Assembly (NCBI GenBank): GCA_905178155.1
Contig: CAJINV010000006.1
Location: 502,398-566,397 of the forward strand
Origin: Amoebophrya sp. A120
Lineage: Eukaryota; Protista; Dinoflagellata
Length of the DNA: 64,000 bases
Reading direction: 5' to 3'
The stretch's first letter is position 1, and the number at the start of each line of letters is the position of its first letter. Shown here piece after piece: positions 4,520-64,000 of the stretch. Under the pieces are notes generated by a model. It was given only the letters and a program-made list of their open reading frames with translations. It had not been told where the DNA came from and searched no databases. The position numbers were made by a program, and so were the translations under genes.

Positions 4520-7500
4520 TCAATACTCCTGTCGACTCAGCACCGACTGCGGGACCATCATATGTCGTACCTCTTTTGGCTGACAGGTGATCACCTCGAG
4601 TCGCACCTGAGTTTCGTTCGAATAATATTCCTATGCATCGCAAATGTGTCTGGATCTGGAAAAGTGCAACGTTTGTCATGCACGTTTTGCATGGCGTGTG
4701 AGGTCTGTGATGCATGCCCTGGCATCACAGATTCTGTGAGATCTTTGCCATGCCTTTTCCGCATGAGAAACTGCGTCTCGGCTTGCTCAAAAGTGCACAG
4801 CTTTATTGGTAATCATGCAACACAGATTTTTGAATGATTCAGACTTAGCATGACAAGTTGTACTCTTCCAGACCCAGACATATTTGCAGTGCATAATTCC
4901 TCTTCGTTCAGCTCGACTCTCGCCCAGGTCCGCAGAAGACTCCGCTCCGTCCGGAATTCCACGCGTGGTGGGGATGTCATTTTTTCTTTATTTTCCGCCT
5001 TTTGGATACTATCCGAAGGAGGTGGAGACGGCGCTGTCGAATCGCGCTGCCGTGGTTGATGGCCGCCGGTTGGCCAATTGGTCAAGTCAGTAGTACTTCT
5101 GCTCGGCGCGGCCAAAGATGAAGTTGTTGTCGTTAAAAACTGCGATGTTGAAGCTGCTGATGCGGGTAGTTGAAGTTGTTCTTGCTGTCGATCAACATCA
5201 TGTTGTCCTTGTTCTACTACTCCGAGCGACAAATTCCCGGCGCAATCCTCAATAAACGTAACAGCAGGCATTGTGGCAGCACTACGACAGGGTAGTGGTG
5301 CTACACGGGAAGGTACAGAAACACTCGTGTCAGGAGCGTACTGATGTTCTACTTCCAGGGCAGGAGTGGGACTGGGAGGTCCTCCGGATGAATCGGAACT
5401 ACTCATAAACGGAACATGAGGTGTGGAAAGGCCGTCGCTGTGCAGGTAGTAGTGCATCTGTTCCTCTTGCTGTGAAGATGTTGTTCCTCCTCCTGCAGCT
5501 TTCGTTCGTGTAGAAGAAGAAGCTGCTCCTGCTGCAGCGTGGGTGTAGTAGTCCACCTCCGCCCCTTGTTTATTTCCCCCGTCTAGTTGCGCAGTTCCAA
5601 CTGTGGGTATCGTATCACTTCGTCTACTATCGTCCCTGTTTACGCTCATCTCCACATCTCCTTCTTCTTTTCGGTCAATTTTCACAGTCTTCGTCTCCAC
5701 CTTCACCCTCCGTTCCAGTAAGTGATACACCCGAAAATCCATCCGTTTCAAATTTCCGGTATAGTAGTCGAACGCAAATTCGAAATGGAATTTGTTATGG
5801 CTGCGAATGTGGAAGTAATGTGCATCCTCTCCACTCGAACCGGCGATAAACGTGGTTTCAAACTCGAAGTGGGGTAGTTTCAGGAAGGATTTTTTGCTTT
5901 CCGCCTGTAGTTCCGAGGATTCCGCAGGTGGGAAACCGGCGCTCGCCGCGGGGACAGAAGAGGAGCTACTGTAGTCTGAAGAACTTCCGGATGTTGATGG
6001 TTGCGCATGATTCAACATATTATCCGGTACTTCTTGCCGCAAAGATGAAGCTGCAGTGGGGATTTCCGTTTGAAAAAATTCCGCGGCTCCAAACTCAAAA
6101 TCAACGGCCGGGTCGATGAATGTTTTGTAAATTTTCACATTCGTTGTTTTTTCTACAATAGTCATACTCTTTCCGTCAAAGGAAACAGTTTTCACTTCTC
6201 CATTACTACTCTCCTGCTGCGAGATGCGGTCTGCGGCGGCCTGCAGCAGGTCGTTTTTGAGCAACACTTATACATTGCAAATAAGTCTGGGTCCTCTCCT
6301 GGATGAAATTTGTGATGCTAAAGTGTGGACGAGTCTAGTGCTTTATTCAAGTGCAGCCAAGCATGACAAATTCATTGGACGCGGTGTGAAGATGCGTAGC
6401 ACGCATGACGAACTAAAGCGTCTTTGCATGCTACAAAAAGGTATTTATTAACGCCTTTATTGCTCGATTACGCAACACAGATTTTTCAGGTATGCTACAC
6501 AGGTAACACACGTTCCACTTTTCCAGACGCAGATCGATATTCGCAATGCATAAAACCTCGGTGACTTCTGGCCGCGCTCGCACCGAGTTCCAGATGGCGG
6601 CCGAGATGAGGGTATGAACTGCAAAAGCATCGCACTCGTAGTAATTGCAATCATGCATTACAAATCTTTTTCTTCTAGGTAAAACCGCATCACAAATTTA
6701 GAGTTCTCATGCTGAGGGAATTTGTCATGCGATTTATACTAGAAGTACGATGCTTTTCCATTTCATAGAGAGAGATGGATTTTTTCGTGATGCGCCACTC
6801 CTGCAGTTTTTGGTAGTAGACACTCGGAGTCATTTGCATCTGCTGCAGTTGCAACACCGGGATGGATTGTTGTTGTTCCCGATTGTACATAGCATTGATT
6901 CCATGATCTTGTTCTCCTGGTGCATCGATTAAATGGTTCATCCCAGTTATAATTTGTTGCTGTTGCACACCTGGACCTCCTCCTCCCAAATGCTCTATCA
7001 ATTCCCGGCCCGCAGCGGTCCTCGGGGTTAACGTTCCGCTGGACATCATCGTTCCTTGAAAATAAACCAGTCGACTGTCCTGCACCCGTCCATTCCGAAG
7101 TAATTTCACCTCATCGGCCGTTGTACTAGTCGCGGCTGCACTACTAGTTGGTGCACCTCTACTCATTGTAGCTCTTCCTCGTGGTAGCGATCTGTCCGCT
7201 TTCAAGACTAACCGCCTCGCCTGCCGGTGGAGTATGTGAACGGCAGCTTTCAACCGGTTTCTTGTACTGTGTATGCATGGCAAATAAGTACGCTTGGGTC
7301 TGCTGGATGAAACTTGTGATGCAAGTCAGTCAAGAATAAGTGCACTATAATGAGCCGGGAAGCATGACATATTTTTTCATGCTTCTGTGCTGCGTATTCC
7401 GCATGAGAAACTGCGTTTTCGCATGACATACGAGGGAGGCTGTTTGTGTTTGTGGCCACGCAATACAGAGTTCAGAGTCACGCCAGACTAGCATGACAAA

Positions 7501-10500
7501 AAATCTCGCAAGTTTCCACGCCGAGACATCTTTGCGTTCGATACTGTGTTCATCCGCCACCGCGTCGGAATCCACCTGGCTGATCTGCGTCTCCTCGCTC
7601 GTTTATGGATTGCAAAAGTCTCTGGGCGGTCTGGAACAAAGCAACTTGTCATGCCAAATCTGAATCATGTAAAAATCTGTGTTGCATGATTACCCAGCAA
7701 AGCTGTCCACTTCTCACCGACTCACGAGGCAGTTTCTCATGCAGGATAGGCATGCTAGAACTCTCACAGAATTTGTCATGCTATGTCCTACATACCAGAC
7801 CTCATGGGTCATGGAAAACCTGCATGACAAGTGTGGCATTCTTCCAGACCCAGACATATTTGCATTTGATATCGTTCGCTGTGGAGTAAAAATCGCGTTG
7901 ATCATCATTTTCTGCATTTTCATAACCACTTGTTCGAGGGATGGCGCAGAGCGAACGAGGGACAACTGCAACGGGCACTGCCTGCTCACGGCAGCCGATG
8001 ATGTTGGCAGAATACTGCCACCAACGCGCGTTTGTACCAACCGCTGCCTCAAGAACGCTCCGCGCGTCATGGTGGTGGTGGCGGTTGTGGGGGCGTCGAC
8101 GTCTAGATCCAGCTCGGCTGGATAGTCATCGGAATCAGAATCAGAATCGTCACTTGATGTTGCGGATGAACTTTCTTCTACCACATCCAACATCTGCGCA
8201 TAAACTGGTCCTTGTTCCGAAGAACCCGTACTAGTTTCCCCGGAAGCACCAATTACACCGCTGCTCACGCTCGCGGTTAACGACTCTTCGAAGAATGATT
8301 CATCCACCTCCGCTAGCTTTTTGGTCATCTGGGTCACGAACATTTTGTAGTCCATCGGCGTCCACAGGTTTGTGTTTTGGTTGAGCAAGGTATCTAAATA
8401 AGATGTTGAACCCGCGTTGTTCGCCTTCTCGACGTCTGGCCTATCGGAAGAGGACGTTGCTCCAGAAGATGACGCTGCGCCCCCGTACACGATCCTGGCC
8501 GTTCCTACGAGCGAGTTGAAGTCTTTTGCGGTTAAGTATCGACAAAGAAAAAAACTGTGTAAGTGTAAGTCTGTCATGTTGGAAGGCTAAGGGCAGGGCG
8601 TCCCCATGTAAATTATTTCGACAAACAGTAGCCGCATACCCGGTAAACTCTAGCGGAATTTATTGGGCAGTGCGATTTCTACCGAAGAACAACCACAGCA
8701 TCTACTGGGACGGCTGCGACGAAAGATGTGTGGGTGCCCAAGTAGAAATAGTTCTGCGCAACGCCATCAACTAGCACCGAGGGAGAAAAAAGAAAGGTAG
8801 AAAAGTGAGAAGCGAGATACTAAGACACAGCCCCACTTACGAAAGAAACACCCTAAAAAGTGGACACACCTATGCGTAGCAGAGTAAAATGTCCTGAACG
8901 CGGGAGCGCGCGCATGAAGAATCAAGCAAGGACGTGCATGCAAATGGCCGAGCAAGTAAATATATGTAGAGAGTGAAACTCTGGTGAAAAAACGGGCAAG
9001 CAGGAACCCGGATGGACAAACGAGAACATCATGACCAAACCAAAGACCACAAAAAGCATGACAAACTAGGCCAGTCTGCTACACAAGGTGAAGCCAGGGT
9101 GGAATTTAGATGTAACCCTGAACGGTAAGCCCATAAAAAATCTAAAGCTCTACACAAAATTCTATCACTAGACCGGTCAATCCACTTCTGCCTGTACCGT
9201 CTCTAACTCGATGGTTTTCTCTGCCACCCTAAGAAGTGGCAAGTGAATGCATGTCATGCCAAGTAGAGACCACTACGACGCGCAACAGCGGCGCAAGCCA
9301 AGTTTTCATTCCCAGAAGGCAGGAGCCCTCGCATACAAAAGTGCCAGTAACCCTGAACAACATACAAAACAGACAGCCGGGCTGTAGAAAACAACAAGGG
9401 AAACTGGCAGCGGGAGGGGAAGAGGAAAACCTAGTGTCGTAGCTAGTCGAGAAAACCGGAGGTAGAGTGCTCGCTATTTTCCGCGTCTTAGTTGGTTGCT
9501 CAAGGGTACAGGCGCCGGCTCCACCATGAGCAACCACGCGAAAAATACGTGGATATTACTGTTTACTATAGTAAAATATAGTTCGAACTTATCTACGTCA
9601 TACAATCATATTTATATAGAAGCTAATAGAGATTCTCTCAGAAAACCAACGCTCTCAGTGTAAGTCAGAGATTCTCTCAGAAAACTAAGTGTAAGTCTGT
9701 CATGCAAAACATGCAACACTGTATACATTTGTCATGCTAGCCAGCCAAGCGAAGCGAAATTTGCATTTCTTTGTCATGCAGAACAAATTTGTCATGCTGT
9801 CACCCGAAGACACCTACACTAACACACTTTCTTCTCTTGCATATTAGGAGTCGTTGGTTCATCAGCTTCACCGGAGGGGGAGAGGAGGTGGGACATCTGT
9901 TATAATCGTTCATCTCGCAAAGGAACACCCCGGGCGGATGCTGGCCGGACCTGCAGGGACCGTCTTCACCCCTTGATGCGCCACCAGTAGTTCCTGCGTC
10001 CCAAGAACTACTACTAGCATCATCAAAACTTCTTCCAGCCGTAAGCACCGAACTAAAACCCGGGTGAGCATCAACCTTGGCGCCGATCGCACTGCCGCTA
10101 CAAAACGTCGTAGAACTACAGGAGCTACTACTCGCGGTTCCTATGTAGTTGCAAAACCCGGCGGAAATCCCCCCATCTATCAAATGCAAATATGTCTGGG
10201 TCTGGAAAAGTGCAAGTTTGTCATGCTTGTCTCACGTGACTCTTGAACCTGTAATGCGTGAGCAGGAAAAGAGCCTCTTGCCTGTCATGCAAAAATGTAG
10301 TTTGTCATGCGGAAAGCGAAACACAAAGGCGCCCAGAAACTTGTCATGCGTGGCTGCCTATTGCAGTCGTGTCCCTACAATTCATAAAGTAGCATCACAA
10401 GTTTCCAGACCCAGACATATTTGCATTTGATACCATCTTCCTCCTCACAACTTGTTTGTTCCGGAATCGCTTTCGCGAACGCAATTTGGTTATGCAGTGC

Positions 10501-12138
10501 AAAAGCATAAGCATCGTACTACTAGTATAAATTGCATTACAAATTCGCTTAGCATATGCAAATAAAATTTGTAATGCGGATAAACGCAATTTAAGTACGA
10601 GTATTCGATACTTTTGCAGTTCATATTGGTTTCTCAAAATCTGCTCCCGAAATTCGTCCAGGGTCTCGGGAAAAAGGTTGGTCGGGTGGGTTAAGGGCAC
10701 GAAGCTGAACGGCTCGCCGGTCATGGTTAAAATCTTCAGCATCTTGTGCTCGGGGGTGGTCGGAACTAACGTGAACTTAAATGTGTGGTTTACCACGGTC
10801 AACGTCGGGTGGGGTTTGTAGCAGTACTGCTTGTAGAGCTGCTTCTGCATTAGCGCCTCCTGAAACACGTGCTTCCCATTTTCTTCCTCTTTCAATATCC
10901 GCGTGTAGAGGTGGTTCAAGACCGGGTAGAGCAAGTCGTCTTTCATCAAATACGACCCGTACTGCGTGAATTCCCTGGGTAACAAAACCGGTGCCTGCAG
11001 CGCGTAGTTGACGGGCACTTTAAATTGCTGTAACAACTGCATCACCGTGACGGGCGGGTCGTCTAGCGCGATTAACGGCCAGTGCTTCTGCAAAGTGAAG
11101 CCAAACGGTGTCTGCACCGTGATCGCCAACATATTGTCGACGCGGTTCTTGATTTTATGGTTACAATCAAGTTTCGAGATTATGTAATTTGAAGCCGCAC
11201 TGCTTGCTGTATTTCCTTGCAGCATCGTTGTTGTGTCGTTTCCTGCTTCGGTCCGTGTTGGTTTTTGCAATTTCACGCAGGCGCCGCGCTTGAACGGAAT
11301 CCGAGAAGCGTTTTTTCCGCGATAAAATAAGGGACCATTATGCGGTGGCTGCTGCGGTTGCTGTGAAGAAGTAGAGGGCATTTGTGGTTCCTGGTCATAA
11401 TGAACAACATGATGATGCGCCGCAGAAGCGGTATCTACCTCGCGGCTACTGCGTGTGGTGGTCGTCGCATGTGAATTATGTGGCGCGGCTGTGCTTGCTG
11501 AGGTCCTCGCGTGGGAGGTAGAAGTCTCCTGCTGTGATGACTGCGGCTGAGCGGCACCATTGCGGCCCCGTGCAGCAGCTTCAGAAGCTCTACTACCGTG
11601 CTGTCTACCTCCCTTTCCTTTCCCTTTCCCTTTACCAGTTCGCGGCCGGCGATGGAAAAAATGTTGCCCCGCGCCCTGGTTGTTCGCCGAACCTGCTGCA
11701 TTATGCGCAGTACGACGACCGTCGCTGCTTCCAATTCCATACACCGGTGTTATAATTTCGGAGCCAACGAGGAAAATCCACCAGCCCAGGAACGCGAGAA
11801 GGAGGTCGAGGCCGCCACACCGGGTCTATGCATTGCAAATATCCCTGGATGTCTGGAAACTTGTGATGCTGGTTGGCGAATCCTGAGGACGCCACAAGTG
11901 ACGGCTCAGCATGACAAGTTTCTGATCTATGCTAGGTGTTGCGTCTTCTGCATGACAAACTGTAATTCGGCATGACAGAAAAGTGCGGCTTTTATTGGGT
12001 AGCGAGCATCACAGACTTCGGGGTCATGCTAGCAGAGCATGACAGGCCTTCCATTCGTCCAGACCCAGACATTTTTGCAATCCATAAGGTCTTCTTGTTT
12101 CCCAGTGCAGCTGCAGGGCGTACCAGCGACATCAGCAT
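4520..12138 (-). CDS. Hypothetical ~1457-aa protein with N-terminal hydrophobic (signal-like) segment; 10 exons, 9 introner introns
   Basis: Exons 12087-12138,10626-11821,10433-10485,9844-10172,7872-8531,7544-7598,6768-7266,6553-6607,4896-6263,4520-4626 sum to 4374 nt; junctions stay in frame (MLMSLVRPAA...LLLAFLGWWIFLVG...SRQEY*). Confidence 0.8.
4632..4895. mobile_element. Introner family A (TIR ~TATCAAATGCAAAAATGTCTGGGTCTGGAA)
   Basis: TIRs, TSD ATTCC. Confidence 0.9.
6269..6552. mobile_element. Introner family A (diverged)
   Basis: TIRs, imperfect TSD ACACT/AAACC, frame restored. Confidence 0.8.
6613..6767. mobile_element. Introner family F (TIR ~TATGAACTGCAAAAGTATCGTAC)
   Basis: TIRs, TSD GAGGG/GAGAG. 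Confidence 0.85.
7272..7543. mobile_element. Introner family A (diverged)
   Basis: TSD CTGTG. Confidence 0.85.
7604..7871. mobile_element. Introner family A
   Basis: TSD TCGTT. Confidence 0.9.
8537..9843. mobile_element. Introner family E (TIR ~TATCCAGAAAAAAACTGTGTAA) interrupted by a 1.1-kb insertion
   Basis: Left end 8537, right end 9843, TSD TTAAG/TTAGG, frame restored (QRLL|TAKD). Confidence 0.8.
8579..9685. mobile_element. Nested insertion, probably a truncated decayed non-LTR retroelement
   Basis: 19-bp direct repeat TAAGTGTAAGTCTGTCATG at 8560-8578 and 9686-9704; duplicated GAGATTCTCTCAGAAAAC at one end; no intact ORF. Confidence 0.65.
10178..10432. mobile_element. Introner family A
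   Basis: Near-perfect TIRs, TSD CCATC. Confidence 0.92.
10491..10625. mobile_element. Introner family F
   Basis: TSD TTGGT. Confidence 0.88.
11827..12086. mobile_element. Introner family A
   Basis: TSD GGGTC/AGGTC. Confidence 0.88.
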
Positions 12139-14473
12139 GATCGTTTAATGTCCTTTCGGTTTCGGTTTCGCCCGCGCTGCGCTGGAAATTATAACACGTT
12201 CGTTGCTCTGTTGTTGGCAGAAGATGCAGAAGGCAGAAGCGCTTGGTGTGGTTCTGCTCGAGCAGGTGGTCCACACTTATTTCATCTAGTGTAAAGTTGA
12301 AGTTTTGTAGTTGTTATATCGTAAAAATCTTATGCAGGGAAGTTGTTCTTGCGTCGATCGTTCGTTTGTTTCAATAACTTGTCAAAATTTTTACGTCTGT
12401 AGTTGCATTTGTCTGATTGCACGGTCAGCCGGAGACAGAGTTTGACCTAACAAACTTTTTCTGCAGCATAATTCTCGTGCCTGATAAGAAGTAGTGTCCT
12501 CGAACAAATTTGTTTGAGAAAAATCCCGTCACCTGTAGGAGATTCCTATTCCAGCATGCGCAGGTTCCATAATATTGCCCCTTCCTTCTACGCAAAAAAT
12601 CAATACCATTTAACTATTGCATTTGCGGATAGAGTTCCTAGTTGTACTGCTCCTGCTGGTGTTAGAAAGAAATAGTAAAACGTAGCATAGTCCAATACTC
12701 CCGAACTGGTTACTATCAATCGATAAAAAAAACCGTACGAGTGCTTGATATCATGAGTGCGCGAAATAATTCTTCGTAGCTGTTTACTCTACTACGAGAC
12801 GAACGATAATTCCGTTTTTTTACTATTGCCGTGACACGTACCTGTCACTTGCCGATTGCGCTGCGCTAGCTGCTGCTGCAACCCTCTCTTCCTGAAGATC
12901 CATCGGACAAACAGAAACAGAAACAGATTCAAATAGAAATAGTCTTTGCATTTAGGCAAATAAACCAATACCTCTGATGTGACACACACAGGCTGTCGAT
13001 CTTCACGCTTTTCATGAAAAATATAGTACAGCTTGTGGTGCTATACAGAGTTCTTCAACGGCATTGAGTTTGGTTGAATTCCAATAGGGTAATTCTTGAA
13101 AATCTTTTACTTAAAAAGTGGTGGTCAGAGAGCACTTGAAATTTACCTTTTATAAAAGTCTCTATCGCTTCTCCAAACGAGAGTAGGACTTTTGCTTTTC
13201 ACAATAGTTCCTGAAATAGTTTTTTTTCACAGCGTATTTGTATTATCGTGCTTCTTGTAGCATGACAACATACGAACCTTCTGCATAGCGTACAGGACGT
13301 ACGGACAAAAAAAGTCCACCGCTCTACTTCGTTACAACCACTGCACAACTGAGATCTTCCGAAACAGCACGAGCGGAGAGTGTGGTCACACCTGCGTGTA
13401 CTAAACAAAGGTGTCGTTTGTAGATAGATCTCTTTCCAAAAGTTGTACAGGAACGTCTGCAATCAGCCGGTTCACCAACATGAAGATCTTACTTCTGCGA
13501 GTAATTGTTCAATGCGAAAACAACACACGACTGAGGTGATGATCTCTTGCTTCTTCGCTTGTCGCCGCCACTGACGATAAAATAGATCCTGCTCGTGCGG
13601 CGACGACTGAAACAGGTAATAAATAGACCCTGCTGCATCAGTCTATTCATTAGTGGTTCTTCACAAAAATGATGCTGACATCTGTAGCTCCATTGCGAGC
13701 CACTTGCGATGCTAAAATTATGGGCTAGACTTGGACTTTCACTTTCCTCGTTTCGATCGGAAAAAAAAAATCAACATCAAAAACGACAAAGAGATCTCCT
13801 CATGTGTAGTTCTGTTTGCAATGCAAACGCCAGTACAGATAGAGCTTCTTACGTGTTTTGGATCTCCGCGTAGATGAACTGTTGATGATGAACATCAGCA
13901 GATCAGACCCATCTTCATGCTCGCGAAATATTAAAATCATGTCCTACTGTCTAACCACAGGACGGATAATTTCATCTGAACAGCAGTACTACCCTCTGGT
14001 CGTCGTCGTGACATGGAGAGCATTTGCTCTTTCCTGTTACAGTCTACTACTTCCAGTCGTGGTCCTACACGACAGAAGTTTTTTCGCTTTCCTCGCCCCC
14101 ACAAGAAATCGAAATCTGTGTGGCGTTAAACAAAAATGTTCGACTGTGGTGGTAAACAAGATTTTGTTTTCTTGTTCACCACTGCTGTTCGACAGGGAGG
14201 TGCTGATCGATAAGTCAACAAGGTCCACCCCACGTTCCGCATAAAAACTTTCGCTAGCACAATGATTGGAATTATGGGACCTCCTGTCACGCGACAACAA
14301 TGCCGGTGGTCTTCATGAAATCCATGTGACTAGTACCATCGTTTTATAGCTATTTAGACAATTGTTGAAGTAGATGAGAAGTATGATTTGAGGATGGTAC
14401 TAGCCGGGGCAAAATTGTAGATACAACCTCTTATCAAAGCATACACTGCCTTCTCCCTGAATTCTTGTAAACC

Positions 14474-18059: not shown

Positions 18060-18212
18060 CGATTGGTAATTGGCTCCTGAACGTCTACGACAATGTCGAT
18101 GGTCCGAGGTTTTTAAAAGGTTGATGATGTTGAGGCAGTTGTACTACCTATGTACAGTTCTCAGACGAGTCGAAGAAAAGTAGTAGCTGTACTGGCGTAT
18201 TAACTAGTGCTA

Positions 18213-18237
18213 GATGATGATGATGATGATGATGATG
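18213..18237. repeat. (GAT)8 microsatellite
   Basis: Directly visible. Confidence 0.9.
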
Positions 18238-53600: not shown

Positions 53601-56600
53601 TCCCAAAAGCAAAACTCGATTGAAAATGCCTCTCATGGGAATGCGCATTACAACTGTTCCTGTGATTGCAAATCTGCATGACAACTGTGAAGTGGGGACG
53701 GTTTTGCTCAAGATACCGGTGCGGGGGTGGTTGTCGTCGTGCGACAGTCGGGGAGGCGGTAAACGCCCCACTTCGGATGCCCGTATCGTGAGGAAAAATC
53801 CCCCCTCCCCATACTCACAATGGAAATTTGTGATGCTGATTTGTGACCACAAATCAGCTTTGTCTTGCATATGAGGCAAATGGGAGCCGTGTGGCGCATT
53901 CCACAGCCAAGCTCTCATGCGCTTTTGCCTACTGCAAAGCTGTCTGTCATGCCCGAGTGCTAGCCTTTTTCATACCTAATCATGCTTAGGAAATGCCTGC
54001 AAGCGCTTTCTGGAATGCAGAGCTGATTTGTGTACACAAAATCCAGCAATAAAAATTTGCGTTTCAATATGGGGAGGAGGCTTTTTGCACTTTGATAGCC
54101 CGGCGTCCTCCGTCTCGATGGGGTGCGTGTCAAACATCGCCTGATACCGCCAGAAGCAGCCCGTTTGATCGTTGGAGAGAGTCCCAGCACCTGCGTCCTC
54201 CTCCGTCGGGGACAACCGGCCCCGAAACTCCATCCGCAGCCACGTGTTCAGGGCGGGCGAGCCGCTGAAGAGAAAAGGAACGTCTTCGTTCTATCCTGAT
54301 TAAAAGCGTCCCCACACCAGAGTCAAGATGGGGATTTTGCAACACAAACCTAGGAGTTTTGGGAGTCACGCATGACAAGTTTCAGTCCGTAAAGTAGTGC
54401 AAATTAGCAAGGAAAGCCGCATCACAAATCGACCTGCTAATCCTGTTTACAGCATTACAAGTTCCCAAAACACGATTGAAAATGCCTGTCATGGGGTTGC
54501 GCATCACAAATGTTCCTGTCATGGCAAATCTGCATGACAACTCTGGGGTGGGGACGTTTTTCATCAGGATACGTTCCACTTGTTTCGGCTTTTCCACACG
54601 TGTCGATTCGGCCAGTATGCATTGCAAAAATCATGTCCGGGAGGTCTGGAAGGATGCAAGGTGTGTCATGCTTGTCCGGCATGACTGAAGAGTTTGTGAT
54701 GCGTGTCCAAGAAGAGACCCTACTTCCGCTCGTCATGCAACACGCAGCTTGTCATGCCAACACTAAGACTTGCGCGAATATTTTATTTCTCATGCTTGGC
54801 TGTGCATTACAGACGAGAAATCACTATTCACAACTCAGCATTACAAGTTTCCAGACATCCAGATCGATATTTGCATTTGATAGCCAGCCGACGTTGCCGT
54901 GCATGTGCCCGTTTACCACGGCAATCACACAGCTGTCGTCCACCAGGTCGTTGATAACTTCGTGCGTCATCCCCTTGTGAGCAGCGCCACGTGTGAAAAT
55001 GTGCAAAAACAACACCGCGTACCGTGACCCGTTAGGACTCGACGCCTGCCACTCCGGGTCGCCGCAGGTCTTGCGCAGCTCCTCGCGGAGCCAATCGACA
55101 CTGTGGCGGAGGCCGTTCAGTGTACGGCAATGCGCCGTGTTGGTGTAGTGGTAGAGGCTATCCCCCTATGGATTGTAAAAATGTCTGGGTCTGGAAGAAT
55201 TGGAACTTGTGATGCTTACTTTGGTCTCTAAAAAAGTCTGTATTGCATGACCAGCAAGAGGAGTCTAGTTTGTGCTACGCGGGGAGGGCGTTTGTCATGC
55301 GGAGTAGGCATCGGGAAGCCCTCTTAAAATCTGCGATGCTAGGTAGTCGTGCATTGCAGACATCCTGGGTCATCCAAAACATGCATGACAAGTCTCAGAA
55401 TCTTCCAGACCCAGACATTTTTACATTTGATACCCCCGTTCTCCCGTCGCAGGCTTCCACACCGTACGTGGACCACTGACTCGGCGACCGGAAGTATCAA
55501 AATGAAAAATCCCCCCTCTCCATATCAAAACGGAAATTTGTGATGCTGATTTGTGGCCACAAATCAGCTTTGTATTGCACAGAGGCACTGCGGCCAGATC
55601 CCCAGGCTAGGTCGGGGCGTTTGGGTCTAGTAGTTCAGCATGGCAAACGGCCCCCCTTTAGGCCCAACAGCGTGACAAATCGCTTCCATAATGGGGCGGA
55701 AGCTTCTGCCCTTGTCTTCTTGCAAGACAGATGTGATTTGTGACCTCAAATCCGCAACACAAATTTCTGAAAACATACCTTTTCAATATGGGGAGGGGGG
55801 ATTTTTCCTCTCAATAGGAAGCAGTCGGCCCCGCGGCCGCGCTGCGCGCACGTACCTTCATAGGCAGGGTGCATGTGCAGGGCAAACATGCGGAACCGGC
55901 CATTGTCGTGCGGATGGGTCCAAGCGTAGGACCCGGACTCCCGGTGAAAAGCGTCAATCACGGAGTTTTTTCGGAAGGTGTCACTCGCAGTACCGAACTG
56001 TTCCGCACTTTTCGTCGCCGCCCTTTTTGAGACGGGAAACCGATTCGAGGCCGCGAAGCCGGATTGCGTGTCACCGCTCGCCGGATCCCGGTCGGCCGTC
56101 GATACCAGTGTTCGGATGTACTGCAACTGACCCATCGCTCTTCCGTTCCCGCACCACAGGCGCCCGACCTGCGCTTGCTCGTACAGATACCCATACGTCA
56201 CCTCATAGTCGTGGTTGCCCAGGAGGGGCAGCACGTACCAGTCCTTGCGTGGGTTAAACTGGTGCAAAAATTTGGAGAAGTACTCTTCAATCTGCGGCTG
56301 CGTTCCGAGGTGCGTTAAGTCCCCCACCACGACCACATCCTGCCGTGCGTAGTTGCCCGGGGGCAGCGCCGTTGTCCCAGGTAAATCGACGAGACCCCCG
56401 CCGTCGTCGGCGGGCAAATTGTGGGCCTCATCATGCTATCAAATGCAAAAGCGTCTGGGGCTGGAAACTTGTGATGCTGGGTGGCGTATCATGAGGAGGC
56501 CACAAGTGCTGGCTCAGCGTGACAAGTTTCTGAGCTTCTAGGTGAAGGTGTTGCCTATTCTGCATGACAAACTACGTTTCTACATGACAGAAAAGTGGGG

Positions 56601-59127
56601 CTCTTGGGTAACGCGCATGACAGATTTGAAAGTCATGCCAGACAAGCATGACAAACATGCACTCTTCCAGACCCAGACATTTTTACATTTGATACATGCC
56701 ACTGACAGCCCGCGCGGTTCGCTTTGCAGGCCATGACACCTTGGGTCACAGCGCCCTGCACGGTGTCGCTGTGAAAAAAATCGCACTTATCCTGTGTAAA
56801 AACGTCCCCACCTACCCAGAGTTCTTGTCATGCAAATCTGCATGCTCAAAATGTTTGTCATGCGGAGCCCCATGAGAAGCATGATTTTCTGGTCGTGTTT
56901 TGGAATTTGTATTGCGCCAATCAGCATGATATACGAGATCTTCTGTGACGCTGCTGAACTACCTCAAACAGCACTACAGTACACTGCGACTCCAAATTGT
57001 GATGCAAAACAGCCAAAACTCGTGGACTTGTCTAGCCGATTTCCCATCTTGATCTTGACTATGGGGAGGTGGGGACGTTTTTACATAGGATAACGCTCGC
57101 TCGCCTGCTGCGTCGCGTACGAAGAGCCCGGCAAGACCTCGAAGCCCTTGAAAGTGCTCTTGTACCCGAATTGCACGTCCCCGACCACGAAAAGGTCGTA
57201 GGACTCGTAGTCCTGCTGTCCGGGAGAAAAGGAAGTTGGCGCCGTCTGAAAGTAGTTGTAGTATCCTGAGTAAAAACGTACCCACACCAGAGTCAGGATG
57301 GGGATTTTGCAACACAAACCTAGGAGTTTTGTGAGTCACGCAGGACAAGTTTCAGTCCGTAAGGTAGTGCAAGTTAGCAAGGAAAGCCGCATCACAAATC
57401 GATCTGCTGATCCTGTTTACAGCATTACAAGTTCCCAAACACGATTGAAAATGCCTGTCATGGGGTTGCGCATCACAAATGTTCCTGTCATGGCAAAGTC
57501 GCATGACAACTCTGGTGTGGGTACGTTTTTACTCACGATATGTAGGACTCGATGCTCCCGACTTGCTGCTCGCTCGTGGTGCAGCCTGCGGTGGAGAACG
57601 TGCCACTTTCCTATCAAGTGTAAAAGTGTCTGGGTCTGGAAGATTGCCAGGTTTGTCATGCATATTTTGCATAACCCATGATGTCTGTAATGCCCGGCCG
57701 ATCATCACAAATTTTTAAGGGGCCTTCTGATGCGTATTCCCCACGAGAAACGCGCGCTCCGCGTAGCACAAACTGAACTCCTCTTGCTGGTCATGCAATA
57801 CAGATTTTTTTTACCTTCCAAAGACGGCATGACAAGTTGCATTCTTCCAGACCCAGACATTTTTACATTTGATATTTCCTGAAAATAGCCGTCTGCGGTG
57901 CAGTATTTCACGTTGCGAAACTATCCCACGAGAAAAGTGTTACAGTTAAGTACACATTTGTAGTGAATTCAGCAACACAAATTTCTCTGTATGAGAGAGG
58001 AAACTTGTAATGCAGAAATCCTACAGGAAATAAACACCTATGAAACGAGGCTCCTATGCACATCCGGCATGACAGAGCTTGTCTGTCTTGCTTGGCCTGC
58101 ATGGACTATGTGTAAAAACTGTAACAGTTTTTTCTTGCGATAGAAACGCCAGCTGTCTCTGGTTGCTGCTCTCGGACCCGTTCTGCTGGTCCAGGCACCA
58201 ACACTTGCTATGCCTGATTGCTTGCTGTATCAAATGCAAATATGTCTGGGTCTGGAAGTTTGTGATGCTAAAATGTGCAAGAGGAATGCACTCCCTTCAT
58301 GCAGGAAAGCATGACAAGTTTACAAAGAACGCTTTCTCACACAAACTCCGCATGGCAAACTGCGTTTTTGTATGACCACAGGAAAGGCTACCACTTTTGT
58401 TGGTCATGCAATACAGATTTCACAGGAATGCAAGACGAGCATTACAATTTCCAACTTTATTCCAGACCCAGACATATTTGCATTTGGTATGCTGAATGTC
58501 GCGGCTAACCGAGTCCGGCACCCAAGCACTGCTCCCCGGAACGGGCGAGCAGTCCACGCCCTTTAGCTTTTCGAGTTCCGTATTTTTCATCTTCATCTCT
58601 AGGGTAGAAGTGCCAGTGCTGGCCCTTTGATTCTCCAGCCGCTCACGCACCTGTTCCTTTGCAGCGGAAGTAGAAGCCCGCGACGCAGCAGCCAGCTTCT
58701 GGAGCAGGGATGTAGAGCTTGCTCTGGTCCTCGCTTTGTTCGAACTAATCCTGCCGAGATGTTGTGATCGTGCTGTAGTTCTGCGGCCCATGCTAGAAAT
58801 TGTTCCAGCATTGTTGTTCTTTCTCCCTCGCGTTCTCTTTGTTCCCAGCAGTTGTGCCTGGTAGGCAGCGGCAAACGGAACATCAAATAAGCCGTCGACA
58901 TTTTTATAACTGGAATCTGTTGCCGTAGAATAAGTGGGGGAAAGTGAATGGATAAGTTTTGTGGAAGTTGTTTTTGCGGGAGTGAACCATAATGTCGAGA
59001 GCCGATGGAGAAGATTAATAGTGGTACAACTCGGGTGGAGCCACACAAGGAGGACAATGGTTTTTTTGACCATTACTGAATGCTGATCCACAATTTTCTT
59101 TGGGAGAACAACAATATTAAACATCAT
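50652..59127 (-). CDS. ~1144-aa calcineurin-like metallophosphoesterase fused to five spondin-type TSP1 repeats; 19 exons, 18 introners
   Basis: Exon sum 3435 nt; motifs VVGDVQFG, VVGDLTH, LGNHDY, LFLHIF, VNGHMH; TSP1 DCVLSDW...CSxTCG...RxR x5; ends PPGFVCC*. Confidence 0.82.
50746..50956. mobile_element. Introner family E
   Basis: TSD TCTCG. Confidence 0.9.
51045..51319. mobile_element. Introner family A
   Basis: TSD CAAGG. Confidence 0.9.
51448..51754. mobile_element. Introner family D (inverted relative to 30976)
   Basis: TSD ATTTC/ATGTC. Confidence 0.88.
52203..52468. mobile_element. Introner family A
   Basis: TSD GTCTA/GTCCA. Confidence 0.9.
52613..52891. mobile_element. Introner family B
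   Basis: TSD CCGAT. Confidence 0.9.
52958..53236. mobile_element. Introner family A (diverged)
   Basis: TSD AGTCC. Confidence 0.88.
53419..53715. mobile_element. Introner family B (diverged)
   Basis: TSD CCGGC/CCGGT. Confidence 0.85.
53784..54097. mobile_element. Introner family C
   Basis: TSD GCCCG. Confidence 0.9.
54292..54571. mobile_element. Introner family B
   Basis: TSD CGTTC; close sister of 57262. Confidence 0.92.
54616..54882. mobile_element. Introner family A
   Basis: TSD GCCAG. Confidence 0.88.
55167..55432. mobile_element. Introner family A
   Basis: TSD CCCCC. Confidence 0.9.
55495..55816. mobile_element. Introner family C
   Basis: TSD GGAAG. Confidence 0.9.
56437..56694. 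mobile_element. Introner family A
   Basis: TSD CATGC. Confidence 0.9.
56788..57092. mobile_element. Introner family B
   Basis: TSD GCACT/ACGCT. Confidence 0.85.
57262..57540. mobile_element. Introner family B
   Basis: TSD TGTAG. Confidence 0.92.
57612..57874. mobile_element. Introner family A
   Basis: TSD TTTCC. Confidence 0.92.
57922..58142. mobile_element. Introner family E
   Basis: TSD GAAAC. Confidence 0.9.
58228..58489. mobile_element. Introner family A (GTA end)
   Basis: TSD TGCTG. Confidence 0.9.
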
Positions 59128-59871
59128 GATAAAGATACAACTTTCTATGGGGCGACAAAGCGTCTACAGACGAAAGACGACAATAAAGACAGGAAGACAA
59201 TAGAATACTTTCTGTTTCTGAAACGGTCGGCGGGGTGCAAATAAATTTACACGGTTGTAAGTAGCATCCAGGTTCATCTTTCTGGGAGGATTTCTTGCCT
59301 GTGAAACTGAAAAATCTCGGTGGATCATCACGTCGCATCATCCAGTTGGTGGAGCTAAAAACGACATAACCACCTACGATGCAGAAGATTGCTTGGACGA
59401 TCATGGAGCAGTACGAGTACGACTACGAGAGCTGCAGGACGATTAAAAATTATTGGACGATGTATAAAACAAGAAATAAGTGCGACACCACAAGGAACAA
59501 GCGAATCATGTTGAGAGGTGGTTGTAGACACGATGATTTCTTTTTCCGCTTGATCAAGAAATACTGTCTGATACATTGACCCGACCACGCGTAGGGTCGT
59601 GTGGTCATGGCGCGATCTTCAGTATTAAATACTGTTTATAGGTTTTCAGTTTTGATGTTGTCCAAGAGCAAGTATTCGGAGTAAATTCGCTTCTAATTCA
59701 GTGGGACGACGAGAACTTACACCAGCCTTCATTTCAGAAACCATTAACGAAAGCGGCGCGAAACTGCAACTGCTGCGCCTGCGACGAGTACACGACGGAA
59801 AAAATACAAACAACGGATTGGAATTGCTGGACGATATTATTTGCTCATTCTGGGGTCATCCTCGTCCACCT

Positions 59872-62800
59872 CTAACAGCACAACCCTGAATAATCCGGGG
59901 GGTCTCCTACAGCAGTAGCGCCATTACTTTCCGTGCTCAAAACTTCTAAATCTCCAGCTGCATTGGAGATGTTAGCAGGGACTAGATCGGGAGGTGTCGC
60001 GTTCGTCGAAGAAAAATCTGTTGTGTTGTTCTGCAGACCACTAGGTGTAGAAGTTGTACCATCTTCAGTGCTGCCAGCACTACTGTTCGTAGAAACACTA
60101 CTAATACTACATTCCTGCAAAACTCCTTCACAGGCTTCCTCCTTTTCCAACGCAAAACCGCTGCAGGGACGCCCACCCCCAACCGCGTCACTGAGCACTT
60201 CTCTCGTCAGTCGGCGCACCCCAGCGCCACAGGTTACGCTACAGGAGGTTGTAGTACTGCCACCCCACTCAGTGAGCTGACAATCCCTGTCCACCGGCGT
60301 AGTTGGTGGATCATCTACGACAGGAGCTGATGTCGACACGGTCGGGGTTGTTGTCCCCCCGTCCTCGTCGCGACACGCGGGGAGCCGAAACGCACCGTGC
60401 CGCATAATGTTTGCTTCGTCTGGATCTGCTTCCACGGGCTTGGTCTTGTACATGCTCTGGAACCGCCAGAAACACTATCAAATGCAAAAATGTCTGGGTC
60501 TGGAACTTGTGGTGCGAACTTTGGACTCTAAAAACGTCTGTATTGCATGACTAGCAAGAGCAGTCTAGTTTGTGCTACACGGGGAGGGCGTTTGTCATGC
60601 GGAGTAGGCAGCAGTAAGCCCTCTAAAAATCTGTGATGCTAGGTCGTGCATTACAGACGTCCTGGGTCATGTGAAACATGCATGACAAGTCTCAGAATCT
60701 TCCAGACCCAGACATTTTTGCATTTGATAAACACGACGCGGCCGGAGATGCGGTGTCAAGAACCTCCTGCTCTCCGCCACTATCAGCCTCCGCGCTGGCG
60801 CGGCCGGTGAATTCCATGCGCAGCCAGGTGTTCATGGCCGGGGAGCCGGCGAAGAGAAAGGGCACATTATTAAGAGGAAAAATCCCCCCTCCCCATATCG
60901 AAAACGAAAGTTGTGACGCTGTATTTGAGTACACAAATCGACTTGTATTGCTAGAAGGCCAAGAGCCGCAGCTGGGGCCTCGTTTGCAGGCAATTTGTCA
61001 TGCTGTTTCCTACTTCCAGCTGCCTCCTGTCATGCTGAAGATGCAAGGCTTTCCCAAGCCACCCAGCACTACAGTCAGAATCTTTTCCCTTCTAGCATGA
61101 CAAAGCTGATTTGTGACTACAAATCTGCAACACAGATTTCCGTTTTGATATGGGGAGGGGGGATTTTTCTTCTTGATACACATCGTCGCCCCACTTGTTA
61201 ACGCTTTTCCACGAGTTTTTGACCTCCCACCCAATCCGCTCGTGGCAGTGGCCGTTTACAACGGCGACGACGCAACTGTCGCGCACCAAATCGTGGATCA
61301 CGTCCGCCGTCATTCCACTCTCGGCGCCGTGGTTCTTCCCGTTTTTAAAAATGTGCACGAATAGCACGGCGTACCGCGACCCCTTGTGCCCCCTCGCGGC
61401 CCAGGTCTCGTCGTCGCACGTCTTCAGCAGCTGGTCCCGCAGCCAGTCCACGCTCGGCCGCAAGTGTCCCAACGTGCGGCAGTGCCCCGTGTTTTCCTTG
61501 TGATACAAGGCGTGGCCGTATCCTGTGCAAAAGTACTATCGCACTCGTTTAGTGATTGCATTTATGCATTACAAATCTCTTTCGCAAGACAAATTAGCAT
61601 TGCAAATCTAATTTGTAATGCTGGGCTAAAACTTGTAATGCAAATTAAACTAGTAGGATGCTTTTGCATTGCATAGGCCGCGCACCCCGTCACACGCCTC
61701 CATGCCGTACGTGGAAAGCTGTCCCGCTATCGTGAGGAAAAATCCCCCCACCCCATACCAAAAAGGGATACTTGTGATGCTGATTTGTAGCCACAAATCG
61801 TCTCTGTGTTGCAAGCAGGCCAATCCAAAGACTCCTTCGCATTGTGCTGGCGGTTTCTGATGCTATGGGGCCTACAGAGTACACATTTGCCATGCTACGC
61901 GCCTACGTCAAAGCCCTTCTACTTAGGCTTGGTATGGGCCTGCAGTTCCCTACTGCAAGACAGACCTGATTTGTGTACGCAAATCCAGCATCAGCAACTT
62001 CGTCTTGATATGGGGAGGGGGGATTTTTCCTTTTGATACCCGCGCATTCTTTCCCGCCGGGCGCGCACCCCGCGGAGGGCGCCTTGCCGGCATTGCAGTT
62101 TTCTTGGTTACACCCCTCGGTCGAAAAACATTTCCCGTCGGCGTTCACGTACCCCCGCTGCGCACAGGTGCCCTCGTAGGCCGGGTGCATGTGCAGGGCG
62201 AACATCCGAAACCGCCCGTGGTCCTGCGGGGGGGTCCAGGCGTAGGACCCCGACTCGCGGTGAAACGCGTCAATAACGGAATTGTGCGCCCACTGCGGGT
62301 GTGTATCCAAAACCGCGTTCGCGGCGCGCTTGGTCACCGGGAAGCGCACAGACTGCGCGCATCAAAGTGAAAAAAGCCCCCACAACATACGCAAAAGGCG
62401 ATTTGTGTTGCTGGATTTGTGTACACAAATGAGCTTTGTATTGCAGCGAGAGTTTGTCGGCATATTCTAAGCCCATTTAGATACGCATCCGGCTAGCAGC
62501 TGCGCATGAGAAACAAGGCTGAGATAGGCGAAAACGCATGACAGGCTGGCTGCACAATGCGCCACATGGGTGCCGTTTGCCTTGTACGCAAGACAGACCT
62601 GATTTGTGGTCGCAAATCAGCATCACAAATTTCCTTTTCGATATGAGGAGGGGGGATTTTTTCCTCGCAATAGCGCGAGGGGGTGATGCGCCTCGTCTAT
62701 GGATGTGTCAGAGTTGAAATCGACAAAGTTGAAATAATTTCCCATGCATAAATTGCAAGGCATGAACTGCCTCTCTTGCAGGGACGGCAAGTGATGCCGA

Positions 62801-63859
62801 CTGTCAGCCTGTTTGGGGTCTGCGATAGAGCTACTAAAGTAGCACTACAGAAGACGCCTTCTGGGGCCCCTAAACAGCATGACAAACTGGATTTGGACGG
62901 TGCCAAAATTTGTCATGCGCCGCTTAGAAATTGGGCTTCCACCTGGTATCGATTTTATGCATTACAAATTATTTCAACTTTGTCGATTTCAACTCTGACA
63001 CATCCATATCGTCGGATATTGGTGTAAAGTCCGCGGTCGTGAGCATTACCCGAATGTACTGTAGTTGTGCCATGGCCCGACCCACCCCGCTATCAGATGT
63101 AAAAGTGTCTGGGTCTGGAAGAATGCATGTTTGTCATGCTTGTCTGGGATGATTCTTAAATCTGTCATGCACGTTACCCAAGAGCCCAATTGTTCTGTCA
63201 TGCAGAAACGCAGTTTGTCATGCAGAATAGGCAACACCTAGAAGCTCAGAAAGTTGTCATGCTGAGCCAGCACTTGTGGCGTCCTCCTGATACGCCACTC
63301 AGCATCACAAGTTCCCAGACCCAGACATTTTTGCATTTGATACCCGCACCAGCGGTGGGCGTCTCTGTGCGGGAACAGGTAGGGGTAGCGGTTCTGGTAG
63401 TCGTGGTTGCCCAGCATGGGCAGCACGTACCAATCCTCCTTCGGATCGTCAAATTGATGCAGAAACTTTTCGAAATACTCTTCCAACTGGCTCATAATGC
63501 CCAGATGCGTCAAGTCTCCCACGACAATGACGTCCTGACGAGGATGTGCAACCATTGAAGCCGAGGACCCAGCAGGACTTGCCCCCGAGGATTCAGGGAG
63601 CTGAACAATTGTGGTAGTAGTTGTTGTAGTCCCAGCAGATGACTGGTCTTGTGCCTCCACTAGCCTCATCGCGTCCGCGTGCCACGTGCAACTCCCCCGG
63701 TCCGCCTTGCAGGCCTTCACGCCCGCGTCGAGGGCGGCGGGTATGGTTGTGGTATCATGGGGAAACGACTGTTTCTCCCCGTTTTCGGTCCTCTTTCGCG
63801 TTGCGGACTCGGATTCGGGGGGGTCCAGCTCGAACCATTTGTCAAAGTGGCTTGTGTAA
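59872..63859 (-). CDS. Paralogous metallophosphoesterase with one TSP1 repeat, 5' end outside the window
   Basis: Exons 63343-63859,63009-63085,62673-62692,62039-62354,61676-61722,61179-61513,60730-60862,59872-60470; VVGDLTHLG, LGNHDY, VNGHCH; ends PPDYSGLCC*. Confidence 0.82.
60476..60729. mobile_element. Introner family A
   Basis: TSD AACAC. Confidence 0.92.
60868..61178. mobile_element. Introner family C
   Basis: TSD CACAT. Confidence 0.9.
61519..61675. mobile_element. Introner family F
   Basis: TSD GGCCG. Confidence 0.87.
61728..62038. mobile_element. Introner family C
   Basis: TSD CCCGC. Confidence 0.9.
62360..62672. mobile_element. Introner family C (CAT start)
   Basis: TSD GCGCG. 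Confidence 0.87.
62698..63008. mobile_element. Introner family D
   Basis: Perfect ~40-bp TIR, TSD TCGTC. Confidence 0.92.
63091..63342. mobile_element. Introner family A (inverted sister of 56437)
   Basis: TSD CCCGC. Confidence 0.92.
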
Positions 63860-63864
63860 CCCAG

Positions 63865-64000
63865 TATGCATTGCAAATATCCCTGGATGTCTGGAAGGTG
63901 GCAACTTGTGATCCTGTCTGTGGATTCTAAAAAAATTTGTCCTGCATGAGGAGGAAGACGAGTCCAGCTTTTGCTACGCGGAGAGGGCATTATTTCTCAT
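63865..64000. mobile_element. Introner family A, cut by the window edge
   Basis: Left TIR TATGCATTGCAAATATCCCTGGATGTCTGGAA. Confidence 0.8.

What the first reader, a model, noticed from the sequence alone, without database searches (positions are those of the whole stretch)
4632..64000. About 85 MITE-like elements act as seamlessly removed introns (element plus one 5-bp TSD)
Seen: at least 11 TIR families, nearly all TAT...ATA with 5-bp TSDs, roughly a third of the window. Deleting element+5 bp gives exon sums divisible by 3 (4374, 999, 5853, 1305, 3435 nt) and rebuilds SET, phosphoesterase and TSP1 motifs. Known: inverted/direct-repeat non-canonical introner elements were reported in Amoebophrya A25/A120 (Farhat et al. 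2021); to my knowledge the removal mechanism is unresolved. Inference: one machinery removes all families, either from RNA or by ciliate-IES-like DNA excision.
Basis: partly seen in the sequence, partly recalled or inferred. Interest (0 to 1): 0.85.

Follow-up and report, generated by a model that had tools for sequence, protein, structure and literature searches.

The report
Known introners, one ruler-like splice cut
These are the already published transposon-like introns of the marine parasite Amoebophrya A120: transcript contigs lack exactly the element plus five bases, and the informative junctions all fit one cut position (one base before the element, four after), likely made on RNA by a spliceosome that no longer needs the usual GT-AG signals.

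Summary
Observation confirmed: 83 complete TIR elements plus one cut off (35% of the window). 76 run TAT...ATA, 63 have an exact 5-bp target duplication, and all lie in eight minus-strand genes. The DNA encodes Amoebophrya sp. A120 proteins, and these are the introner elements of Farhat et al. 2021, so the system is known. Added here: RNA-type contigs skip exactly element+5 at 9 of 11 elements laid. Three public A120 proteins match my spliced models across 48 elements. Twelve imperfect duplications all fit one register, exon-NNNN|N-TAT...ATA-NNNN|N-exon, and only that one. Removal is independent of element orientation, of interior length (135-1307 bp) and of duplication identity, which argues against microhomology or reverse-transcriptase artefacts. 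DNA contigs keep the elements, so IES-like DNA excision is not supported. The register equals that of a GT-AG intron made from an nnAGG duplication, and the 5' T is better kept than its mirror (1 vs 10 of 321). A relaxed spliceosome is my best guess (0.55), and it is untested. The upper bound of the register rests on two sites. The scan reached the same 1+4 cut earlier on other DNA of this genome.

The parts
4523..12144 (-). Gene A, 1457 aa after splicing; 9 elements: 4632-4895, 6269-6552, 6613-6767, 7272-7543, 7604-7871, 8537-9843, 10178-10432, 10491-10625, 11827-12086
   Evidence: All 9 skipped as element+5 in RNA-type contigs; one 4925-nt contig is laid in pieces from 4896 to 10172 with 0 differences
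6269..6552 (-). Element with imperfect duplication (transcript sense GGTTT upstream, AGTGT downstream): at least 4 upstream bases are kept
   Evidence: RNA joint in X3, X4, X6
11827..12086 (-). Element with imperfect duplication (GACCT / GACCC): fifth base comes from the downstream copy, so at most 4 upstream bases are kept
   Evidence: RNA joint in one X4 contig, depth 4.2
8537..9843 (-). 1307-bp element: a short introner plus an insert of about 1.1 kb between 19-bp direct repeats (8560, 9686); removed whole as 1312 nt
   Evidence: RNA joint 8531 to 9844 in three runs; anatomy
16501..18143 (-). Gene B, 332 aa; 2 elements: 17380-17642, 17708-17997
   Evidence: ORF restored; no RNA joint listed, exon cover near zero
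22792..34426 (-). Gene C, 1950 aa; 23 elements: 23072-23332, 23868-24017, 24235-24496, 24827-24994, 25361-25662, 25712-25917, 26096-26325, 26383-26660, 26701-26906, 26974-27242, 27297-27555, 27629-27937, 28002-28213, 28278-28433, 28517-28670, 29265-29592, 29766-29909, 29963-30272, 30327-30606, 30976-31281, 31533-31793, 31849-32139, 33213-33534
   Evidence: Model identical to public protein P0001 over 1381 of 1381 aa across 22 elements
28517..28670 (-). Element with no duplication in register (ATCCG / AAAAT; a matching copy lies 3 nt further out); the cut follows distance from the element end, not the repeat
   Evidence: P0001 fits only 4 or 5 upstream bases kept
28278..28433 (-). Element where keeping the downstream copy would create a stop codon
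29265..29592 (-). Element giving the second upper bound (at most 4 upstream bases kept)
   Evidence: P0001 has Thr, not Met
29963..30272 (-). The one element whose duplication (CAAGG) makes the fixed register a canonical GT-AG intron
36382..41573 (-). Gene D (SET-like, weak), 761 aa; 11 elements: 36444-36693, 36890-37151, 37212-37401, 37444-37706, 37775-38125, 38384-38599, 38633-38898, 38955-39235, 39724-39972, 40503-40706, 40781-41054
   Evidence: Model identical to P0002 over the first 660 aa across 8 elements; P0002 then reads into 37212-37401, while homolog P0003 keeps the downstream exons
37775..38125 (-). Diverged element whose two repeat copies share only 2 of 5 bases (AATGC / GACCC); still removed in register
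   Evidence: P0002 and the independent homolog P0003 both read L-T-N-A-A-M
39724..39972 (-). Degenerate element found through P0002; mismatch at position 4 shows the upstream base is kept
42875..46396 (-). Gene E (P0004, 245 aa); 9 elements: 42921-43186, 43237-43515, 43854-44161, 44210-44464, 44501-44763, 44968-45176, 45210-45444, 45725-45952, 45984-46248; plus three GT-AG introns starting GTAC, GTAT, GTAC
   Evidence: canonical introns read by eye against P0004; whole-length identity not computed
47376..49779 (-). Gene F, 434 aa; 4 elements: 47535-47813, 47892-48175, 48609-48895, 49193-49421
   Evidence: ORF restored
50655..59163 (-). Gene G, metallophosphoesterase-like plus TSP1 repeats, 1144 aa; 18 elements: 50746-50956, 51045-51319, 51448-51754, 52203-52468, 52613-52891, 52958-53236, 53419-53715, 53784-54097, 54292-54571, 54616-54882, 55167-55432, 55495-55816, 56437-56694, 56788-57092, 57262-57540, 57612-57874, 57922-58142, 58228-58489
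   Evidence: Model identical to database protein P0005, 1144 of 1144 aa; Pfam
59875..64000 (-). Gene H, paralog of G, runs off the window; 7 elements: 60476-60729, 60868-61178, 61519-61675, 61728-62038, 62360-62672, 62698-63008, 63091-63342, and a truncated one from 63865
   Evidence: ORF restored

Best explanation
These are Amoebophrya A120 introner elements: short inverted-repeat elements with 5-bp target duplications that stay in the DNA and are missing from transcript contigs together with exactly five flanking bases, likely cut from the pre-mRNA by a relaxed spliceosome that measures from the element's own ends. SHOWN: removal of element+5; both orientations removed; no base preference in the duplication; removal where the duplication has decayed; one register fits all 12 informative sites (the exon keeps four bases of the upstream copy and the last base of the downstream copy, so the intron is N-TAT...ATA-NNNN). 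INFERRED: the elements spread as non-autonomous cut-and-paste transposons; the symmetrical ends (TAT, seven variable bases, A-run) are the only splice signals, which is why orientation and interior do not matter; the 5' end is read like a GTAY donor without the G; the 3' site is set by distance (four bases after ATA) rather than by AG. Because the cut falls at the same offset in both copies, the pre-insertion message is restored, so insertion into any exon position would be nearly harmless.
For: RNA joints equal element+5 at 9 of 11 elements laid. P0001, P0002 (first 660 aa) and P0005 are identical to models spliced by this rule across 22, 8 and 18 elements. Lower bound (4 or more upstream bases kept): 6269 (RNA), 28517, 37775, 39724 (proteins). 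Upper bound (4 or fewer): 11827 (RNA), 29265 (protein). Six more sites are compatible. Homolog P0003 from another organism confirms the product at 37775. Orientation: 29 of 62 members of the seven largest clusters are flipped, and RNA shows removal of both orientations (4632 vs 7604; 10178 vs 7272 and 11827). FOR THE SPLICEOSOME: the register is that of a GT-AG intron when the duplication is nnAGG (1 of 80 here, 9 of 241 in a second assembly). The 5' T deviates in 1 of 321 against 10 of 321 at its mirror (p=0.011, post hoc). The commonest 5' variant is TAC, and three ordinary introns in gene E begin GTAC, GTAT, GTAC. Farhat et al. found 83 of 89 spliceosomal proteins and all snRNAs but U1 in A120. 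In Fritillaria a U2 spliceosome handles transposon-derived non-canonical introns.
Against: No trace of canonical preference: G at intron +1 in 25 of 80 (p=0.47), AG at the end in 3 of 80, none in the second assembly either. The ends are predicted to pair with each other (mean 0.74-0.83 at TAT), which would hide a donor site. The similar ruler-type introns of Euglena are thought to be non-spliceosomal and give circles. The polarity signal is not significant in the second assembly alone (p=0.12) and is one of three positions examined. An A/T-drift test of the register was null. The upper bound rests on one low-depth contig and one annotated residue. Public proteins and RNA runs may share source data. 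P0002 reads into element 37212 (a 5' TAC variant), so removal may not always be complete. No lariat, intermediate or factor was observed.
Confidence: 0.55

Rival explanations
1. Same RNA-level removal and same register, but done by a dedicated non-spliceosomal machine (a structure-guided endonuclease plus ligase) that binds the terminal stem and cuts one base before and four bases after it, as proposed for euglenid nonconventional introns.
For: The ends are predicted to pair into a stem. There is no G or AG bias. U1 snRNA was not found in A120. Euglena introns use paired motifs with fixed free spacers of 3 and 5-6 nt (PMC12501133 passages) and are excised as circles (review). A 1.1-kb insert does not disturb removal.
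Against: The register coincides with the canonical exon|GT...AG|exon register, and the 5' T is kept better than its mirror, which a purely symmetrical stem would not demand. No candidate enzyme was identified.
Confidence: 0.33
2. The elements are excised precisely from DNA before transcription, like ciliate IESs, perhaps only in one life stage.
For: The ends are those of DNA transposons. The DNA and RNA runs are different samples, and their life stages are not known to me. Contigs drop rare alleles.
Against: Eight single-copy DNA contigs (24-36x, 0 differences) cross 18 exon/element borders, 10 of them with 31 or more letters on each side, and one spans element 45725-45952 whole. A symmetrical DNA cut gives no reason for the kept bases to follow the transcription direction at 12 of 12 sites. 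Precise heritable excision would erase the elements in an organism with, to my knowledge (recalled), no separate somatic nucleus.
Confidence: 0.05
3. The mRNA keeps the elements; the junctions are reverse-transcriptase template switches across a hairpin with direct repeats, and translation copes by ribosomal bypassing.
For: A hairpin plus direct repeat is the usual setting for such artefacts (PMC13149111 passage). Any 5-base repeat contains a full codon in every frame.
Against: Removal is in register where the repeat copies share 2 of 5 or 1 of 5 bases (37775, 28517). Implied RNA depth inside elements is 3.5 or less against 20-23 in exons in five of six bins; the sixth (20 and 69) holds a multi-copy element end and is likely inflated by other loci. 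80 of 80 elements tested would add a stop or a frameshift.
Confidence: 0.03

Closest known systems
Introner elements / non-canonical introns of Amoebophrya sp. A120 (Farhat et al. 2021, PMC7789003; seen: abstract, passages, sections 10, 16, 25, supplement legends; figures not held)
   Same: Same organism by protein identity. Inverted repeats start TAT, then seven variable bases, then an A-run. 5-bp direct repeats are shown in their Fig. S19. Many families, RNA-seq-supported removal, non-GT-AG ends, mean length near 240 nt.
   Different: The paper describes direct repeats of variable length and position, splice sites as variable relative to the hairpin, and borders as unknown. Here one 5-bp duplication and one cut register fit all informative sites, and orientation independence is shown. 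I could not see their Figs S19-S23, which may already hint at this.
Euglenid nonconventional introns (PMC12501133, passages; PMC6221363, abstract; review PMC11282704, section 6)
   Same: Paired terminal motifs set at fixed distances from free-sequence ends; MITE-like origin proposed; coexist with GT-AG introns.
   Different: Motif CAG...CTG with spacers of 3 and 5-6 nt and a purine starting the next exon, against TAT...ATA with spacers 1 and 4 and no purine rule (45 of 80). Unrelated lineage.
Fritillaria borealis non-canonical introns (review PMC11282704, section 6; PMC13326754, passages)
   Same: MITE-derived, with TIR and TSD, excised by an adapted U2 spliceosome: a precedent for the favoured mechanism.
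   Different: They keep preferred ends (AG-AC, AG-AT), and U1 is present. Here 46 end combinations occur among 80 elements and U1 was not found.
MITEs / TIR-type introners of Micromonas, Aureococcus, Polarella (as described in PMC7789003 and PMC11282704)
   Same: Short non-coding TIR elements whose splicing removes the element plus one target duplication.
   Different: Those use canonical or near-canonical splice dinucleotides supplied by the element or the duplication.

Membership tests
Amoebophrya A120 introner elements | Located in the A120 genome | tested here: met
   P0001, P0002 and P0004, named A120 by their source, match window exons at 100%
Amoebophrya A120 introner elements | Inverted repeat starting TAT, seven variable bases, then three or more A | tested here: met
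   End profile of 80 elements: TAT in 76-80 per position, A in 65-74 at positions 11-13
Amoebophrya A120 introner elements | 3-5 nt direct repeat at the borders | tested here: met
   63 of 83 exact at 5 bp; 281 of 394 in a second assembly
Amoebophrya A120 introner elements | Absent from transcripts, with non-GT-AG ends | tested here: met
   9 of 11 RNA joints; GT-AG in register in 1 of 80
MITE (non-autonomous TIR transposon) | Short, TIRs, fixed-length TSD, high copy number | tested here: met
   mean DNA depth up to about 100,000 in element-bearing bins against about 30 in unique DNA
MITE (non-autonomous TIR transposon) | Mobilised by a cognate autonomous transposase | not tested
   No transposase-sized ORF in the long element (103 and 108 aa at most inside it, no Pfam hit) or in seven longer elements of the second assembly. 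Earlier scan notes name hAT-like candidates elsewhere; I did not check them.
U2 spliceosomal intron | GT/GC donor and AG acceptor | tested here: not met
   1 of 80
U2 spliceosomal intron | Branch point and lariat intermediate | not testable with these tools
   The first A of the terminal ATA is well kept at the 3' end but not significantly more than its mirror (4 vs 10 deviations of 321, p=0.17)
Euglenid nonconventional intron | CAG...CTG-type paired motif, 3 and 5-6 nt spacers, purine at the start of the 3' exon | tested here: not met
   TAT...ATA, spacers 1 and 4, purine in 45 of 80
Euglenid nonconventional intron | Excised as a full-length circle | not testable with these tools
   Needs intron-product sequencing
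Ciliate IES (features recalled, not from a call) | Removed from DNA in the expressing nucleus | tested here: inconclusive
   The one DNA run laid keeps the elements; other life stages not examined

The most novel reading that the evidence does not exclude
Amoebophrya A120 has a splicing system with no required base at either splice site: it finds any TAT...ATA element in either orientation and cuts by ruler at -1 and +4, which exactly undoes a 5-bp target duplication. The published 'highly variable' splice sites would then be one code, the genome's exons would be open ground for one transposon superfamily, and the spliced elements would in turn shelter retroposon-like inserts. In its boldest form the machine is a new non-spliceosomal nuclease-ligase.
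Probability: 0.3. Interest if true: 0.75.

Novelty: already known. Interest (0 to 1): 0.42.

Why it matters
The elements and their removal from RNA were published in 2021, but the borders were left unknown and the mechanism open. A single register turns tens of thousands of apparently random junctions into one testable rule. It says where to look for lariat or circle junctions, which bases to mutate in a minigene, and how to annotate these genes correctly. It also shows how a host can make transposon insertions into coding sequence nearly neutral, which bears on how bursts of intron gain happen. I did not find the register stated in print: seven library searches and the passages read showed none. 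Subscription papers such as Roy et al. 2023 and the figures of Farhat's supplement were not visible to me.

Tried and rejected
No whole genome is held for the window, so no genome-wide count was possible. The first read-laying mixed a DNA run with RNA runs; element copies swamped the joint table (15 of 2827 rows shown), so it gave no RNA joints and cannot exclude rare element-free DNA alleles. In that call X3 and X4 had little or no cover over element-free bins of 46.7-60.1 kb; the matching database protein P0005 shows other data exist. An A/T-drift test of which copy is intronic was null (18 vs 16 at positions 1-4 in the second assembly; pooled p=0.52). A residual G or AG preference in the duplication was looked for and not found. 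A nearby GT/GC-AG pair in frame exists within 10 nt for 47 of 82 elements, but none of the 9 RNA joints uses a different length; the 'GT..AG' label at 11822 is on the non-coding strand. Eight of 20 imperfect duplications are silent at protein level and say nothing on the register (27297, 40503, 40781, 42921, 45210, 48609, 52203, 53419). In the second assembly 80 of 321 candidate elements were dropped for lack of a clear strand call. Rfam found nothing in the window. A search for hAT5 5-bp TSD literature gave one listing that I did not read. P0006 gave no alignment output against gene H and was not pursued.


Full report
WHAT IS THERE. A strict scan for inverted repeats flanked by direct repeats gave 39 hits in the window and none in three Markov controls. 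Looser scans and hand curation gave 83 complete elements and one cut off at 63865, 22,470 bp or 35% of the window. 76 of 83 run TAT...ATA. The flanking repeat is exact at 5 bp in 63, has one mismatch in 16, and is never exact at 6-9 bp. Clustering 81 of them gave 11 multi-copy groups and 11 singletons at one threshold, and 18 to 31 groups at others. All lie in eight minus-strand genes. Removing element+5 puts 74 of 83 inside ORFs of 300 aa or more, against 16-23 for frame-shifting offsets; +2 and +8 give 55 and 73. Left in place, 80 of 80 elements tested would add a stop or a frameshift.

WHOSE IT IS. Exon queries returned proteins named Amoebophrya sp. A120 at 100% identity. Farhat et al. 2021 (PMC7789003) describe in A120 29,850 repeated introns, 17% of the assembly. 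Their inverted repeats start TAT, then seven variable bases, then an A-run, with 3-5 nt direct repeats and RNA-seq support. U1 snRNA was not found. They call the splice sites variable relative to the hairpin and the borders unknown. The feature is therefore known; the question is whether more can be said about the cut.

REMOVAL IS EXACT. Contigs of four RNA-type runs (one sample; 'RNA' is the tool's guess, and two silent bins at 13.3-14.2 kb have zero cover) were laid on 4550-18300. Joints skip 269, 289, 160, 277, 273, 1312, 260, 140 and 265 nt, each equal to element+5. That is 9 of the 11 elements there; the other two lie in a gene with almost no exon cover. Three further joints in that table are low-depth rows that do not match an element plus flank. 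Implied depth inside elements is 3.5 or less against 20-23 in exons in five of six bins; the sixth is high and holds a multi-copy element end. Separately, my spliced models equal P0001 (1381 of 1381 aa, 22 elements), P0005 (1144 of 1144, 18 elements) and P0002 (first 660 aa, 8 elements). The A120 gene models were built from mapped transcripts, so they may share data with the runs. One exception: P0002 reads into element 37212, whose 5' end is TAC, whereas homolog P0003 from another organism keeps the exons beyond it. That is either an annotation miss or weak splicing.

THE REGISTER. Twenty elements have unequal repeat copies; twelve are informative. Let k be the number of bases kept from the upstream copy in transcript sense. 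RNA gives k=4-5 at 6269, k=0-4 at 11827, and k=2-5 at 6613 and 8537. Proteins give k=4-5 at 28517, 37775 and 39724, k=0-4 at 29265, k=2-5 at 23868 and 28278 (where the other copy makes a stop), and k=3-5 at 51448 and 56788. Only k=4 fits all twelve: the intron is N-TAT...ATA-NNNN. The upper bound rests on two sites, one a single contig of depth 4.2. At 37775 the copies share 2 of 5 bases, and both P0002 and P0003 give the in-register product. At 28517 a matching repeat lies 3 nt out of register and is ignored. The cut is therefore measured from the element ends, not guided by repeat homology.

ORIENTATION AND INTERIOR DO NOT MATTER. 29 of 62 members of the seven largest clusters are flipped relative to their reference, and RNA shows removal of both orientations within two clusters. 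A second assembly reached by an end-pattern scan (147 loci, 500 kb; relation to this strain not established) gave 429 paired ends, 281 of 394 short ones with an exact 5-bp repeat, and mixed orientations (26/33, 10/11, 15/5, 3/6, 9/8). A 1307-bp element carrying a 1.1-kb insert is removed as cleanly as a 135-bp one.

DNA OR RNA. Eight single-copy contigs of a DNA-like run (24-36x, no differences) run from exon into element at 18 borders, 10 with 31 or more letters on each side, and one spans an element whole. Contigs drop rare alleles and the life stage is unknown, so stage-specific DNA excision is not strictly excluded. A symmetrical DNA cut would not explain why the kept bases follow transcription at all twelve sites, although all genes here are on one strand, so that polarity was not tested on plus-strand genes.

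WHICH MACHINE (inference). For a spliceosome: the register is the one that makes a GT-AG intron when the duplication is nnAGG (1 of 80 here, 9 of 241 elsewhere), which fits the paper's note that 15% of canonical A120 introns have the same repeats. The first T of the element, intron position +2, deviates in 0 of 80 and 1 of 241 at the 5' end against 4 of 80 and 6 of 241 at its mirror (pooled p=0.011, post hoc; strand caller right in 67 of 68 window cases). The commonest 5' variant is TAC, like the GTAC/GTAT donors of three ordinary introns in gene E. Against: there is no G or AG bias at all, the ends are predicted to pair (no shuffle control), and Euglena's analogous ruler introns appear non-spliceosomal. 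I put the relaxed spliceosome at 0.55 and a dedicated nuclease-ligase at 0.33; RNA-level removal overall is about 0.9.

EARLIER NOTES. I reached the 1+4 register and recorded it before opening the scan's notes. Those notes report the same cut on other DNA of this genome, and candidate hAT-like transposases elsewhere; they are unreviewed and I count them as no support.

VERDICT. The fixed, orientation-blind and homology-blind register is a useful refinement that I did not find in the papers I could search, and it makes the open mechanism directly testable. Interest 0.42.

Noticed in passing
window 8560-9704; L034:3862-4492: An insert of about 1.1 kb between 19-bp direct repeats sits at the TGTCATG motif inside element 8537-9843. 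A 354-bp piece of the same insert (97% identical) sits at the same motif in an element of another family in L034, and near-identical copies appear in RNA contigs. It looks like a retroposon-like element that targets introners; it has no ORF over about 110 aa.
   Followed up: partly
window 14474-16104: A 1.6-kb stretch bounded by 22-bp direct repeats, with internal inverted repeats of 85-126 bp. Diverged copies occur in RNA contigs, and one X4 contig joins 14516 to 16188. Possibly another mobile element.
   Followed up: no
window 37212-37401 and 58228-58489: The two elements whose transcript 5' end is TAC. The public model P0002 reads into the first, while P0005 removes the second; TAC may be a weaker signal.
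   Followed up: partly
window 43516-45724: Three ordinary GT-AG introns share a gene with nine introners and also carry the TGTCATG/CATGACA motif that is common inside the elements; they may be decayed elements or share a binding site.
   Followed up: no
window 50655-64000: Two tandem paralogs encoding a phosphoesterase-like domain plus TSP1 repeats, with 18 and at least 7 elements. Whether any insertion sites are shared would date the insertions against the duplication.
   Followed up: no
window 44705-44764, run X9: A raw RNA run under the same species label holds one element end with foreign flanks (108 reads), i.e. a related element apparently left in a transcript of another strain; the rest of the stretch is not covered.
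   Followed up: no
window 1000-2750: GC-rich stretch (55-60% in the first 4 kb) with overlapping open frames on both strands, no elements and no Rfam match.
   Followed up: no
window 20123-21643: A 507-codon minus-strand ORF with no element at all, in an otherwise element-dense region; no Pfam match.
   Followed up: no
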